Below are positions 50,881 to 58,267 of a stretch of 64,000 nt of DNA, one piece after another. The stretch is taken from positions 26,151 through 90,150 of the forward strand of contig JBBILH010000003.1 in the NCBI GenBank assembly GCA_037445005.1, read 5' to 3'. A program made the position numbers and the translations under genes. Positions within the stretch are counted from its first letter, which is position 1. Every line of letters starts with the position of its first letter. The DNA comes from Nitrospira sp. GTDB taxonomy: Bacteria > Nitrospirota > Nitrospiria > Nitrospirales > Nitrospiraceae. The notes under the pieces are model-generated. The model was given only the letters and a program-made list of their open reading frames with translations. It had not been told where the DNA came from and did no database searches.

Positions 50881-51699
50881 ATGACGGACAAGGGACAGGA
50901 ATTCGACATCGCGGACTATCGGATCAGCCACGAACCATTCTATGCCGAGGTTCGAGGAGAGATCGGCCTGTTCACAACGGCGGCGAAAAGTCGCATGCCC
51001 GTCATGCTTAAGGGACCGACCGGATGCGGCAAAACGCGATTTGTCCAGCACATGGCCTATCGCCTCGGGCGGCCGCTGATCACCGTGGCATGCCATGAAG
51101 ATCTGACGGCTTCCGATCTCGTCGGACGGTATTTGCTGAAGGGACAGGAGACGGTCTGGACCGACGGCCCCTTGACGGTGGGGGTGAAGCACGGCGCCAT
51201 CGTCTATCTGGACGAGATTGTGGAGGCCCGCAAGGATACGACGGTGATCATCCATCCCCTCAGCGACGACCGCCGGTTCCTGCCGATCGAAAAGAAAGGA
51301 CAGGTCGTCGAAGCGGCGGACGACTTCATGCTCGTGATCTCCTACAACCCCGGCTACCAGAGCGTCCTTAAGGATCTGAAGCAGAGCACCAAGCAGCGGT
51401 TCATGGCGATCGAGTTCGACTATCCGGCGCCGGAGATCGAGACCAAGATCGTTGAGCGCGAATCCGGCGTCACTGCTGAAGCGGCTCAGGGATTGGTAAG
51501 GCTCGCAGGCAAGGTCCGGAATCTTAAGCACCATGGCTTGGAAGAAGGGGTCAGCACCAGGCTCTTGATTTATGCGGGCACGCTGATTCGAGAAGGCGTC
51601 GCGGTCGATCGCGCCTGCGATGCGGCGATCGCCCGGCCTATCACGGACGACCCGGACATGCAGCGCAGCATCGCTGAACTCGTCAAGGCTATTTTTTAA
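50881..51699 (+). CDS. CbbQ/NirQ/NorQ family MoxR AAA+ ATPase
   Basis: [45 protein letters not shown]. Confidence 0.93.
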
Positions 51700-51732
51700 C
51701 GGGATGGGACGCCATCCTGCCGCCCGTCGTTC

Positions 51733-52044
51733 ATGACCCGTTCCATCGTGCAGGAAGGAGACAATGGTGTTGTTCTTGCCGTCTACGTTCAGCCCAAGGC
51801 GTCCCGCACCGAGTGGGCCGGCTTCCATGGATCTGCCCTGAAGCTTCGCGTGGCCGCGCCACCGGTCGATGGAGCGGCCAACGAAGTACTGGTCCGATTT
51901 CTCGCCAAGGAATTCTCGATTTCCGCATCGGCCGTCAGGATCGAAGGCGGCGCCGCCGCGCGGTTCAAGCGGATCGCTTTGAGGGGCTTGCGTCTCTCGG
52001 ACGTAGAGACGTACCTGCGACGGAAAGGGTTGGTGACGGCATGA
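51733..52044 (+). CDS. DUF167/YggU family protein
   Basis: VYVQPKASR, VAAPPVDGAAN. Confidence 0.88.
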   Translation: MTRSIVQEGDNGVVLAVYVQPKASRTEWAGFHGSALKLRVAAPPVDGAANEVLVRFLAKEFSISASAVRIEGGAAARFKRIALRGLRLSDVETYLRRKGLVTA

Positions 52045-57700: not shown

Positions 57701-57773
57701 GTACACCGTGATCGATCATGTGGAAGCGCTTCCGGTACGGCTGCCGAGAATTTATCAGAAGCTGACAAGTTGA
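54753..57773 (+). CDS. NorD/CbbO-like VWA-domain protein with N-terminal helical repeats
   Basis: YPEWDY, DVSGST MIDAS, NRDGAAIRHA, LLSDGRP, FCVTID; start set at MADSQ. Confidence 0.9.
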   Translation: MADSQALQQLTTRIAGELGPATATYLAARLSQAGCHAAKVVALFEELEETSQKAARAAVGALPELDRRAGLADIETWLDLGVVLAGSSGATALKFFKDSPLILGVIEDSKARGAVLSVGLELADRDPNAALEYLKTAPQILDVVSFDELGAWLDVAVDLIESDVVVGLEFIRQIPSIAPVLPIADIRNWLAFGLKLIAPNAIGKPDYLATMEFLRRSPAILADIEAVAVRVKAVSVGALLAQHSPDAGIAWLAESPRLLRALPNVEWQTKVLQYGALLGERHPAAVPDYLRRSPEIVGFLGDEPQSAVRFDEWFKAGMEVGAYSSEGVRAYFAMESHRALASVEEAISGVPLRRVARRVKLFVEGLCGWAVAITALPDSVGSVSARARVSADGRTIMLPAVLRRYPTAEQNERLYLIMAAHEAGHLEFGTYRLSPASLVDVAEAACRRYGRPSRGVLTSIADLFKLYPHPRLMQDLWTVLEDARVEFLLREGYPGLRRELAQLAAEAVTARDPSHGLTVKELLVDCLLRLSTGEAESTAVPRAVQDEATQLWRLCLPLYSTTATAEATVRVAHAVYVRMEELLAPRTEMLRAETSRQESADVGVGPSASEDSGEPYRPVTNWVYRGEMNPEFIARNPEEAKDGQGQFGGTASGGGGSKERASLGQGKTEEPKDSADGDVFGGGRSMPATVEELLTLEVEAQAVKDDVGAGARAVRYPEWDYVIQDYRVNWSRVFERPVEEGADDCVSWALSAHRSRIRALRRFFEGLRPPAFRRVSGQTDGEELDLDVLVRRAAEQHAGFEGGDRVYIRREKKERDVAVAFLVDVSGSTGRQLEGGRRVIDVEKESLVLLCEALESVGDQYGLFAYSGQGRASVEFFTIKDFDERLDSSTAHRLGGLTPRRQNRDGAAIRHAVAKLKAREARTRLLVLLSDGRPLDGDYKDEYSLQDTKAALQEARRVGVVPFCVTIDREADGYVRRMYGDVQYTVIDHVEALPVRLPRIYQKLTS

Positions 57774-58267
57774 CGGGAGACGCGCCGAATTCCTCCTTGT
57801 CGGCCGGACTCGTGCACGCTCGTCAGCCCGATCTTCGTAGGGAGCCAGTCGATCTTTTTATGGTAGATGGGCGAGGCGAGCGCGCGGTTCCACCTTGGTT
57901 GTACAAGCTCTTCACGGGGCACCAATATCCCTATGTGCGTCGGCTCGCGAAGTTTTCGCAGCCGTTGAGGCCGGGCGAAGATCGCCCCGAGCCCGCGAAG
58001 GACCTGATCGAAGCCAAATTCTGGGAAGTCTATCCTCGTTGCTCGGCGAAGGTATTGCAGGAGGTCAAGACCGGCATGATCGTGGTCTTTCACGAACTCG
58101 GCGAGTATCCTCCCGGCGGCTATCAGGAACTCATCGACAATCCGGAGGAGTTTCTGGCGAGAACGTACGGGAAGAAGAAGATCAAGGTGAATTTCTACGA
58201 CGGCGAGAATTTCGTGTGCACAATCAATTTCAAAGTGGCGGGCTGGACGGAACATGAGCATTCGTGA
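57770..58267 (+). CDS. Hypothetical protein coupled to the VWA gene
   Basis: TTG overlaps the VWA stop; globular-looking composition; the true start may be later. Confidence 0.65.
   Translation: MTGDAPNSSLSAGLVHARQPDLRREPVDLFMVDGRGERAVPPWLYKLFTGHQYPYVRRLAKFSQPLRPGEDRPEPAKDLIEAKFWEVYPRCSAKVLQEVKTGMIVVFHELGEYPPGGYQELIDNPEEFLARTYGKKKIKVNFYDGENFVCTINFKVAGWTEHEHS

What the first reader, a model, noticed from the sequence alone, without database searches (positions are those of the whole stretch)
50881..58267. CbbQ/NorQ ATPase and VWA adaptor with no Rubisco or NO reductase, flanking an FTR
Established: CbbQ-CbbO and NorQ-NorD remodel Rubisco or insert iron into NO reductase. Neither client is in the window. 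The VWA gene is head-to-head with an Fe-S ferredoxin:thioredoxin reductase-like gene, is coupled to a 165-aa unknown protein, and leads into mdh-nuoF-fdx-erpA. Inference: a metal-insertion or remodelling chaperone for a different, undescribed client.
Basis: partly seen in the sequence, partly recalled or inferred. Interest (0 to 1): 0.62.

Follow-up and report, generated by a model that had tools for sequence, protein, structure and literature searches.

The report
Orphan enzyme-remodelling trio in Nitrospira
This nitrite-oxidiser genome carries an ATP-driven protein-remodelling machine of the kind that reactivates Rubisco or loads iron into nitric-oxide reductase, yet has neither enzyme; the machine has a previously unnoticed third small protein, occurs in nearly every sampled member of its bacterial class, and has an unknown target.

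Summary
A CbbQ/NorQ AAA+ gene (50881-51699) and a 1006-aa NorD/CbbO-type VWA gene (true start 54753, not 54579) lie in a Nitrospiraceae genome that is 99.95% complete and has no Rubisco, no haem-copper oxidase/NorB and no real NirS.

- **Pairing.** The two genes are split by five genes here. They are adjacent (cbbQ-vwa-small gene) in deeper Nitrospiria lineages, and each is unique in this genome.
- **Third component.** The "165-aa" ORF is really a 135-aa protein (57860-58267). It follows the VWA gene in 61 of 62 Nitrospirota loci and has no Pfam or PDB sequence match.
- **Distribution.** All three genes were found in 59 of 59 sampled genomes of three families. The small protein was found in 73 of 81 genomes of the class.
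- **Subfamily.** The VWA protein is neither NorD nor CbbO. It has an extra N-terminal helical solenoid, a core with an intact HExxH...E motif, and Asn in place of the MIDAS threonine.
- **Client.** Still unknown. A link to the reductive TCA cycle is a weak lead.

Papers already note norQ/norD without norB in Nitrospira. This scan has flagged many orphan Q/O pairs on other DNA, for example Dehalococcoidia coaE operons. This is a new variant of a known kind.

The parts
50881..51699 (+). cbbQ/norQ-type MoxR AAA+ ATPase, 272 aa. Walker A GPTGCGKT (aa 45-52), helix-2-insert motif [10 protein letters not shown] (aa 82-91), Walker B IVYLDE (aa 107-112), CbbQ_C domain.
   Evidence: Pfam AAA_5 E 1e-34 and CbbQ_C E 2e-33. 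PDB matches 5c3c E 6e-108 and 9qh4 E 7e-107, 62% identity to each. It is the only CbbQ_C gene in the genome.
54693..54721 (+). Sigma-70-like promoter match (TTTACA-17-TACAAT) about 30 nt upstream of the VWA start codon, in the divergent FTR/VWA intergenic region.
   Evidence: Consensus scan, 10 of 12 matches. The number of such sites in the region was not above the shuffled expectation, so this is weak evidence only.
54753..55793 (+). VWA protein aa 1-347: N-terminal alpha-solenoid of about nine helix pairs. This extension has no counterpart in NorD.
   Evidence: AF2 model on a 31-sequence alignment, block pLDDT mostly above 90. Foldseek finds only designed helical repeats. No Pfam match.
55800..56543 (+). 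VWA protein aa 350-597: conserved alpha/beta core, the NorD/CbbO N-domain equivalent. HEAGH lies at aa 421-425 (nt 56013-56027) and the invariant Glu481 at nt 56193-56195.
   Evidence: Weak match to PdNorD/JtNorD residues 84-126 and to CsoCbbO 157-212, E 0.001. HExGHxE[FY] occurs in 116 of the 120 nearest homologues. E481 is invariant in alignment A3. Weak Foldseek hit to the minigluzincin selecase 4qhi_D: probability 0.75, TM 0.48, E 1.7.
56544..56897 (+). VWA protein aa 598-715: low-complexity, predicted disordered linker.
   Evidence: pLDDT below 50 for 596-614 and 637-700. This region is poorly conserved and gap-rich in alignment A1. The NorD linker is likewise unresolved but functionally essential (PMC13036017).
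56898..57773 (+). VWA protein aa 716-1006: NorD/CbbO-type VWA domain. The finger lies at about aa 771-816. MIDAS is D824-x-S826-x-S828 (nt 57222-57236), Asn903 in QNRDG (nt 57456-57470) where NorD and CbbO have Thr, and D931 in SDGRP (nt 57540-57554). The C-terminal tail is LPRIYQKLTS.
   Evidence: Matches PdNorD 310-637 at E 7e-51, with the stretch 774-1005 (PdNorD 406-637), which covers nearly all of the finger, aligned almost gap-free. It is 35% identical to the carboxysomal CbbO of N. hamburgensis, E 2e-52. Invariant columns are listed and motif positions.
57860..58267 (+). p135: a 135-aa soluble alpha/beta protein and the constant third gene of the module.
   Evidence: It lies next to the VWA gene in 61 of 62 Nitrospirota loci. 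It was found in 73 of 81 genomes of the class and 60 of 251 of the phylum, always as a single copy. AF2 pLDDT is 88. It has no Pfam match and no PDB sequence match.
54169..54594 (-). Single-subunit ferredoxin:thioredoxin-reductase catalytic-chain-like gene, divergent from the VWA gene. This is an associated neighbour, not a core part of the module.
   Evidence: PF02943 E 3e-23. The cysteine motif CPC-x16-CAC-x8-CHC is visible. It is divergently adjacent in 32 of 47 loci with upstream flank, and absent from this position in the deeper clades.

Best explanation
The locus encodes a three-component ATP-driven remodelling machine of the NorQD/CbbQO (MoxR AAA+ plus VWA) type. It is a core feature of the class Nitrospiria and works on a client that is neither Rubisco nor nitric-oxide reductase.

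**Shown**
- The CbbQ ATPase, the 1006-aa VWA adaptor and the 135-aa protein p135 co-occur as single-copy genes.
- They descend from an adjacent cbbQ-vwa-p135 operon.
- The adaptor keeps the sequence elements that bind the NorQ ring in solved structures. On the ATPase this is the helix-2-insert motif. On the adaptor these are the VWA finger region and the C-terminal tail.

**Inferred by analogy**
- One adaptor plugs its finger into the pore of a CbbQ hexamer.
- The MIDAS face, the large N-terminal domain (solenoid plus HExxH core) and p135 hold the client.
- ATP hydrolysis twists and stretches the disordered linker to open the client for cofactor insertion or release of an inhibitor.
- p135 is most likely the specificity or docking subunit, or itself the remodelled small subunit of the client enzyme.

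The client's identity is not established.
For: 1. **Sequence features.** CbbQ is 62% identical to both CsoCbbQ and NorQ and has Walker A, Walker B and GRxLLxxxxT (motif from PMC13036017). VWA residues 674-1005 align to PdNorD 310-637 at E 7e-51; from residue 774 on, covering nearly all of the finger and the C-terminal tail, the alignment is almost gap-free.
2. **Exclusivity.** The genome has one CbbQ_C gene and one NorD-type VWA gene.
3. **Ancestral adjacency.** The order cbbQ-vwa-p135 is seen in L063, L064, L066, L103 and L104.
4. **Co-occurrence.** All three genes were found in 39/39, 17/17 and 3/3 genomes of three families. The class members checked from families f30 and f4 lack all three.
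5. **p135 linkage.** p135 follows the VWA gene in 61 of 62 loci. It is more conserved than the adaptor: 64-86% against 42-70% identity across Nitrospirales.
6. **Known clients missing.** No RbcL, COX1 or NirS in the genome. In the class sample, families f2 and f3 have 0/6 and 0/7 for both RbcL and COX1.
Against: - No physical or expression data exist.
- In this genome and in most Nitrospira loci, cbbQ is no longer beside the VWA gene. It is adjacent in 2 of 38 loci with at least 5 kb of upstream flank, within 10 kb in 15, and elsewhere in 21. Co-regulation is therefore not evident.
- The MIDAS threonine is Asn here. The T534V change inactivates NorD (PMC9976466), so client binding may differ from the models.
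- Two fairly complete class genomes (G272, G290) have cbbQ and vwa but no detected p135. Assembly gaps cannot be excluded.
- p135's role rests on gene order and co-occurrence alone.
Confidence: 0.7

Rival explanations
1. The client is an enzyme of the reductive TCA or ferredoxin-linked autotrophic core, for example an oxygen-sensitive 2-oxoacid:ferredoxin oxidoreductase or another rTCA enzyme. The trio would then be the rTCA counterpart of a Rubisco activase or maturase.
For: - The order vwa-p135-mdh is conserved in 56 Nitrospirales loci.
- In the class sample, the ATP-citrate-lyase marker PF16114 and p135 share the same family-level pattern. Both are absent from f30 (0/3) and f4 (0/1), and these are two of the only three families with a strong Rubisco match. 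The third, f34, carries both markers.
- Fe-S and ferredoxin genes recur nearby: FTR, nuoF, fdx and erpA here, and Mrp/ApbC, HdrD-like and rubrerythrin in L103/L104.
Against: - The co-distribution rests on one or two evolutionary events. Any class-core gene would show the same pattern.
- No rTCA enzyme other than mdh is ever adjacent.
- mdh adjacency is absent from the deep clades: der follows p135 in L063 and L066, and polysaccharide genes follow in L103 and L104.
- The NRDG-type VWA subfamily also occurs in Myxococcota.
Confidence: 0.18
2. The client is a respiratory membrane metalloenzyme specific to these bacteria, for example a cytochrome bd-like oxidase with a putative copper site, or nitrite oxidoreductase. 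The pair would insert a metal as NorQD inserts FeB.
For: - NorQD is the closest solved relative, and its job is metal insertion into a haem-copper-superfamily enzyme (PMC13036017, PMC9976466).
- This genome has four bd-like oxidase genes and no haem-copper oxidase.
- bd-like genes are present in all trio-bearing families.
Against: - bd-like oxidases are also present in f30 and f4, which lack the whole trio.
- No oxidase or NXR gene lies next to any of about 100 loci inspected.
- One trio-carrying clade is labelled Manganitrophaceae. From general knowledge, not tested here, that group does not oxidise nitrite and would have no NXR.
Confidence: 0.1
3. The adaptor's HExxH...E core is an active zincin-type metallopeptidase. 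The machine would be an ATP-coupled processing protease, with p135 as substrate, inhibitor or cofactor.
For: - HE(A/V)GH-x-E-F-G-T-Y is intact in 116 of the 120 nearest homologues, and a downstream Glu481 is invariant.
- The motif sits in a long predicted helix, followed by a second helix carrying E481.
- There is a weak Foldseek hit to the minigluzincin selecase.
- An earlier scan note says MoxR beside a zincin-vWA fusion is already in print. I did not verify this.
Against: - The motif has degenerated in lineages that still keep cbbQ-vwa-p135: YQAGY in L063 and L068. It has also degenerated in Dehalococcoidia (HQxxH/R) and in NorD.
- No peptidase Pfam model matches.
- The Foldseek E-value of 1.7 is not significant.
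Confidence: 0.08
4. The pair serves an unrecognised NO-reducing enzyme, as a genome survey suggested for a related family ("novel mechanism for NO reduction").
For: - Annotation pipelines call the genes norQ and norD.
- PMC11033732 raises the idea for the 9FT-COMBO-42-15 family.
- From general knowledge, nirK is common in Nitrospira.
Against: - No NorB-like gene is present in the genome or in families f2 and f3.
- The VWA domain lies far from a genuine NorD in the tree.
- The N-domain is unlike NorD apart from about 45 residues.
- No nitrogen-oxide genes are nearby.
Confidence: 0.04

Closest known systems
NorQ/NorD (FeB insertion into cytochrome c-dependent NO reductase; cryo-EM 9qh4-9qhg; PMC9976466, PMC13036017)
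   Same: - The ATPase is 62% identical to PdNorQ and has the same helix-2-insert motif.
- The VWA domain, finger region and C-terminal tail align at E 7e-51.
- A disordered linker lies between the N-domain and the VWA domain.
- Both cysteines of the inactivating NorQ C46-C68 disulfide are present (C49, C71).
   Different: - No norCB anywhere in the genome.
- The adaptor is 1006 aa against 638 aa.
- An extra 350-aa solenoid is present.
- The N-domain is alignable over only about 45 residues.
- The MIDAS Thr is replaced by Asn.
- There is an extra conserved partner, p135.
- The genes are not adjacent here.
- In the VWA tree, NorD lies on a long branch outside the NRDG group.
CbbQ/CbbO Rubisco activase (A. 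ferrooxidans Q1O1/Q2O2, PMC4660213; carboxysomal CsoCbbQ 5c3c; N. hamburgensis plasmid copy used here)
   Same: - The ATPase is 62% identical to CsoCbbQ.
- The VWA domain is 35% identical to CsoCbbO (E 2e-52).
- There is faint collinear similarity in the N-region (E 0.001).
- The expected stoichiometry is one adaptor per hexamer.
   Different: - No Rubisco in the genome.
- CbbO is about 770-786 aa and has a perfect MIDAS with Thr.
- No HExxH motif was noted in CbbO.
- No p135.
- CbbO is the most distant branch in the VWA tree.
Orphan coaE-cbbQ-(Nudix or metallophosphoesterase)-giant VWA operons of Dehalococcoidia
   Same: - A long-form VWA adaptor of about 1000-1100 aa with the same solenoid-core-linker-VWA layout over its full length (27-29% identity).
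- A CbbQ partner is present.
- No client is known.
   Different: - Those proteins keep the MIDAS Thr (TRMG) and have HQxxH/R instead of HExxH.
- They lack p135.
- They are tied to CoA genes.
Other MoxR/VWA metal-centre systems: CoxD/CoxE (CO dehydrogenase), RavA/ViaA (Nuo, Frd), CobS/CobT (cobaltochelatase)
   Same: The general logic is shared: an AAA+ ring plus a VWA/MIDAS adaptor acting on a metalloenzyme. CobT_C (PF11775) is detected in some homologues.
   Different: These belong to different MoxR subfamilies. There is no CbbQ_C domain and the adaptor architectures differ. None was tested beyond Pfam and NCBIfam scores.

Membership tests
NorQ/CbbQ (CbbQ/NirQ/NorQ MoxR AAA+) | AAA_5 module with Walker A, Walker B and the helix-2-insert motif GRxLL/IxxxxT, plus a CbbQ_C domain | tested here: met
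   [14 protein letters not shown] and [10 protein letters not shown] are present. Pfam E-values are 1e-34 and 2e-33. Identity to 5c3c and 9qh4 is 62%.
NorD (cNOR maturation adaptor) | [quoted passage not shown] | tested here: met
   Residues 674-1005 align to PdNorD 310-637 at E 7e-51; from 774 on, covering nearly all of the finger (Pd 403-448) and the ...LPxIYxxL tail, the alignment is almost gap-free. This is sequence-level evidence only, with no complex model.
NorD (cNOR maturation adaptor) | Canonical MIDAS DxSxS...T...D | tested here: not met
   D824, S826, S828 and D931 are present, but the Thr position is Asn903 (QNRDG against YTRLG/YTRMG).
NorD (cNOR maturation adaptor) | Client norCB present and usually in the same operon | tested here: not met
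   No COX1/NorB match in a 99.95% complete genome. Families f2 and f3 show 0/6 and 0/7.
NorD (cNOR maturation adaptor) | NorD-type N-terminal domain of about 240 aa | tested here: inconclusive
   Only residues 384-427 give a weak match to NorD 84-126, with domain scores of 5.3 and -1.9 bits. The rest is unalignable, and a 350-aa solenoid is added.
CbbO (Rubisco activase adaptor) | Rubisco client; a protein of about 770 aa with a perfect MIDAS | tested here: not met
   No RuBisCO_large match in the genome. The protein is 1006 aa with Asn at the MIDAS Thr position. Identity to a genuine CsoCbbO is 35%, confined to the VWA domain. It lies outside the NRDG group in the tree.
Zincin-type metallopeptidase (gluzincin-like) | HExxH in an active-site helix, plus a downstream metal ligand and the zincin fold | tested here: inconclusive
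   HEAGH (421-425) lies in predicted helix 408-427, and the invariant E481 in helix 470-492. The Foldseek hit to selecase has E 1.7 and TM 0.48. No peptidase Pfam model matches.
Rubisco small subunit-like fold (for p135) | An alpha-beta-beta-alpha-beta-beta core that superposes on RbcS, with detectable profile similarity | tested here: not met
   The order of secondary structure is the same, and RbcS chains lead the Foldseek list. However, E is 0.04-0.6, TM is 0.32-0.45 and rmsd is 8-12 A. hhalign against two RbcS sequences gives probability 0.1%. An HMM search of the PDB finds no RbcS.
Ferredoxin:thioredoxin reductase catalytic chain (neighbour gene) | FeThRed_B domain with the CPC...CxC...CHC cluster/disulfide motif | tested here: met
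   PF02943 E 3e-23. The motif CPC-x16-CAC-x8-CHC is visible. Presence of a variable-chain partner was not examined.

The most novel reading that the evidence does not exclude
The CbbQ-VWA-p135 trio is the "activase" of reductive-TCA autotrophy in Nitrospiria. It would be an ATP-driven repair or maturation machine for an oxygen-exposed carbon-fixation or ferredoxin-dependent enzyme. p135 would act as a small-subunit-like docking piece, and the HExxH core would hold or deliver a metal. This would extend the Rubisco-activase principle to a second carbon-fixation pathway.
Probability: 0.12. Interest if true: 0.8.

Novelty: new variant of a known kind. Interest (0 to 1): 0.45.

Why it matters
From general knowledge, Nitrospira and its relatives carry out much of global nitrite oxidation and complete nitrification, and genetic tools for them are largely lacking.

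A machine kept as single-copy genes in nearly every sampled member of the class probably serves an enzyme central to their lifestyle. It is built from a well-understood ATP motor, a distinctive adaptor and a new 135-aa protein family.

Defining the three parts, and excluding Rubisco and NOR, turns a mis-annotation ("NO reductase NorD/NorQ") into a testable biochemical question. The three proteins can be co-expressed and used as bait. The work also warns against counting these genes as denitrification markers in metagenome surveys, as some papers do.

Tried and rejected
1. **Client by gene neighbourhood.** I inspected about 100 loci from Nitrospiraceae, other Nitrospirales, deep Nitrospiria and Dehalococcoidia, including places where cbbQ has moved away. 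Only p135 is constant. Where cbbQ has moved, it travels with a CxxC-LPG-synthase-like gene, a hybrid kinase, DUF167 and Gly-zipper genes, none of which is a plausible client.
2. **p135 as a Rubisco small-subunit homologue.** Foldseek suggested this. hhalign and an HMM search of the PDB do not support it.
3. **Form IV Rubisco-like protein as client.** It is present in only 10 of 17 Nitrospiraceae sampled and absent from this genome and from f2 and f3.
4. **Other known partners.** There is no real NirS. No GvpA match was found, but that control was uninformative.
5. **bd-like oxidase as client.** This is weakened because f30 and f4 have the oxidases without the trio.
6. **FTR as obligatory partner.** Rejected, because the adjacency is lineage-limited.
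7. **Fold search of the adaptor N-region.** Nothing significant was found. The viral fold library was uninformative for p135.
9. **Literature.** No paper was found that studies these proteins in Nitrospira.
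Full report
**What is there.** The window lies in a 3.5-Mb Nitrospiraceae genome of 183 contigs, 99.95% complete. The nearest named relatives are Nitrospira spp..
- **cbbQ.** Gene 50881-51699 (+) encodes a 272-aa CbbQ/NorQ-type MoxR ATPase with AAA_5 and CbbQ_C domains.
  - It is 62% identical to carboxysomal CsoCbbQ (5c3c) and to Paracoccus NorQ (9qh4).
  - It carries Walker A GPTGCGKT and Walker B IVYLDE.
  - It also has the helix-2-insert motif [10 protein letters not shown], which contacts the NorD finger in the cryo-EM structures (PMC13036017).
- **Five intervening genes.** These are a DUF167 gene (51733-52044), two Gly-zipper genes, an HDOD gene on the minus strand, and a single-subunit FTR-catalytic-chain-like gene (54169-54594, minus strand).
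- **VWA gene.** It follows next. The longest ORF starts at 54579. Homologues of 997-1012 aa and a promoter-like site at 54693-54721 place the start at ATG 54753, giving 1006 aa.
- **Small gene.** All 64 homologues begin about ten residues before VPPWLYKLF. The product is therefore 135 aa from ATG 57860, with an 86-nt spacer after the VWA stop.
- **Downstream.** mdh, a Urate_ox_N-like membrane gene, nuoF, a 2Fe-2S ferredoxin, erpA and GTP cyclohydrolase I follow.

**The known clients are absent.**
- The genome has no RuBisCO_large match and no COX1-family match, hence no NorB or any haem-copper oxidase.
- It has only 19-22-bit beta-propeller matches to cytochrome d1.
- In an 81-genome sample of the class, strong Rubisco matches occur only in families f30, f4 and f34.
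- Ten of 17 Nitrospiraceae have a weak, Rubisco-like-protein-grade match. Families f2 and f3 have none.
- COX1 is likewise 0/6 and 0/7 in f2 and f3.

**The two genes are partners, and there is a third.**
- cbbQ and the VWA gene are each unique in the genome.
- In deeper Nitrospiria they are adjacent and followed by the small gene. L063, L064 and L066 show cbbQ-vwa-p135, and in L063 and L066 der comes next.
- L103 and L104 show rubrerythrin, an HdrD-like gene, DUF3501, Mrp/ApbC, a 109-aa membrane protein, cbbQ, vwa and p135. The p135 HMM matches there at E 1e-28.
- Among Nitrospirota loci with enough flank, p135 follows the VWA gene in 61 of 62, and mdh follows p135 in 56. The FTR-like gene is divergently upstream in 32 of 47.
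- cbbQ is adjacent in 2 of 38, within 10 kb in 15, and elsewhere in 21.
- Where cbbQ has moved, it stays with the CxxC/LPG-synthase-like gene, the hybrid kinase, DUF167 and the Gly-zipper genes.
- In a 251-genome phylum sample, p135, CbbQ_C and the adaptor's N-region are each present in 39/39, 17/17 and 3/3 genomes of families f1, f2 and f3. p135 was found nowhere else in that sample.
- In the class sample, p135 is in 73 of 81 genomes.
- The class members checked from f30 and f4 lack cbbQ, vwa and p135 together.

**Anatomy of the adaptor.**
- An AF2 model of residues 1-700 has a mean pLDDT of 82 on a 31-sequence alignment. It shows three regions:
  - an alpha-solenoid of about nine helix pairs (1-347);
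  - an alpha/beta core (350-597);
  - a disordered linker (598 to about 715).
- The C-terminal 290 residues are a NorD/CbbO-type VWA domain.
  - They match PdNorD 310-637 at E 7e-51, including the finger region and the tail.
  - They are 35% identical to a genuine carboxysomal CbbO from the N. hamburgensis plasmid, E 2e-52.
- The N-region resembles NorD over only about 45 residues. It resembles CbbO over 56 residues at E 0.001.
- Two features set the protein apart.
  - The MIDAS threonine (NorD T534, CbbO2 T656; PMC9976466 and PMC4660213) is Asn903, in a QNRDG motif.
    - This NRDG type makes up 52 of 131 typed representatives.
    - In a VWA-domain tree, 51 of them fall into one group, with SH-aLRT support of 90. 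NorD and CbbO lie outside that group on long branches.
  - The core carries HEAGHLEFGTY (421-431), and Glu481 is invariant.
    - The motif is intact in 116 of the 120 nearest homologues.
    - It has degenerated in deep Nitrospiria (YQAGY), in Dehalococcoidia (HQxxH/R) and in NorD.
    - Foldseek gives only a weak hit to the minigluzincin selecase, with E 1.7. A zincin-like origin is therefore a lead, not a finding.

**p135.**
- It has no Pfam match and no PDB sequence match.
- The large protein database holds 729 relatives. All named ones among the 120 listed are Nitrospira or Nitrospirota and are annotated as hypothetical.
- The AF2 model has a pLDDT of 88. It shows three short N-terminal helices followed by an alpha-beta-beta-alpha-beta-beta core.
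- Invariant residues alternate along three of the four strands (E68, K70, G72; K107, K109, N111, Y113; T121, N123). I read this as a conserved exposed sheet face, that is, a binding surface. This is my inference.
- Foldseek's top PDB hits are Rubisco small subunits, which have the same order of secondary structure. The scores are non-significant (E 0.04-0.6, TM 0.45 or less).
- hhalign against two real RbcS sequences gives 0.1% probability. I do not claim homology.
- In family f34, p135 carries a C-terminal extension of about 100 aa. It sits divergently, three genes from cbbQ-vwa.

**How it most likely works.**
- Shown: the adaptor and the ATPase keep the sequence elements that bind each other in the NorQD structures.
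- Inferred:
  - One adaptor docks its finger in a CbbQ hexamer and its tail on a post-sensor-1 loop.
  - The MIDAS face, the large N-domain and p135 engage the client.
  - ATP hydrolysis strains the linker to remodel that client (model from PMC13036017 and PMC4660213).
- I give 0.7 to this three-part machine acting on a client other than Rubisco or NOR.

**Which client.**
- The best lead is the reductive TCA or ferredoxin core.
  - mdh adjacency is conserved in Nitrospirales.
  - The ATP-citrate-lyase marker is absent from f30 and f4, which also lack the trio. It is present in every other family sampled, and in every complete genome of those families but one.
  - Fe-S carrier genes recur nearby.
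- This evidence rests on one or two evolutionary events, so it is weak. I give it about 0.18.
- bd-like oxidases occur in every family, including the trio-less ones. That weakens this idea, and I give it about 0.1.
- An ATP-coupled zincin protease gets about 0.08. An unknown NO reductase gets about 0.04.

**Comparison with what is known.**
- Genome surveys already report norD and norQ without norBC in Nitrospira MAGs (PMC13032477). They report the same for the 9FT-COMBO-42-15 family (PMC11033732).
- Some studies count these genes as NO-reductase genes (bioRxiv 10.1101/655316; PMC6131200).
- This scan has also flagged many orphan Q/O pairs elsewhere, notably the Dehalococcoidia coaE-cbbQ-Nudix/phosphoesterase-VWA operons. 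I saw these again in L070-L083.
- To my knowledge the following points are new:
  - the class-wide three-gene module with p135;
  - the Asn-MIDAS subfamily placement;
  - the solenoid plus HExxH architecture;
  - the exclusion of the known clients across the clade.
- Verdict: a new variant of a known kind, of moderate interest.

**Limits.**
- Family and genus labels in the genome searches are anonymous.
- Kin are not independent, so the co-distribution counts are descriptive only.

Noticed in passing
window 51733-52044 (+): A 103-aa DUF167/YggU gene (E 4e-22) starts 34 nt after cbbQ. It overlaps the over-extended start of the first Gly-zipper ORF (51813-52463). A small gene in this slot travels with cbbQ in other Nitrospira genomes.
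   Followed up: partly
window 50881-51699 (Cys49, Cys71) and 54169-54594 (-): CbbQ keeps both cysteines that form the ATPase-inactivating C46-C68 disulfide in P. denitrificans NorQ. In Nitrospiraceae a ferredoxin:thioredoxin-reductase-like gene lies between cbbQ and vwa. Redox gating of the motor is conceivable. However, the cysteines are also present in CsoCbbQ, so they are not specific to this lineage.
   Followed up: no
L103 1-13454 and L104 1-13354: In a sister Nitrospiria clade the module sits behind rubrerythrin, an HdrD-like CCG/Fe-S protein, DUF3501, an Mrp/ApbC Fe-S carrier and a 109-aa three-helix membrane protein that overlaps the cbbQ start. The ligase plus lysine-aminomutase pair found at window 41479-44504 is also upstream there, so part of the wider synteny is old.
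   Followed up: partly
L105-L108 (family f34 of the class): Here p135 has a C-terminal helical extension of about 100 aa (motif ...TAGNQYEDYLSILLN...). It is divergently placed three genes from cbbQ-vwa, next to a thioredoxin-fold protein, a membrane protein and multihaem/EB_dh (NxrC-like) cytochromes.
   Followed up: partly
Class sample, families f30 and f4 (e.g. L097): The two Nitrospiria families that lack the whole trio also lack the ATP-citrate-lyase marker. They carry one or two strong Rubisco genes. In L097 the Rubisco is a small-subunit-less form next to a transaldolase.
   Followed up: partly
Own genome, contigs C55 and C43: There are four cytochrome bd-like oxidase genes (partial PF01654 matches; ORFs of 572-650 aa for the three listed) and no haem-copper oxidase at all. 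From general knowledge this fits the unusual Nitrospira respiratory chain.
   Followed up: no
L070-L083 (Dehalococcoidia/Chloroflexota): Long-form VWA relatives (27-29% identity over the full length) sit in coaE-cbbQ-(metallophosphoesterase or NUDIX)-vwa operons without p135. Their cbbQ carries an insertion of about 20 residues after the Walker A region.
   Followed up: partly
window 60156-62201 (+): A stand-alone nuoF with an adjacent 2Fe-2S ferredoxin and erpA is conserved downstream of vwa-p135-mdh throughout Nitrospiraceae. In other Nitrospirales, erpA and the Urate_ox_N-like gene are often missing from this position. Another first-stage note covers it, and I did not examine it here.
   Followed up: no
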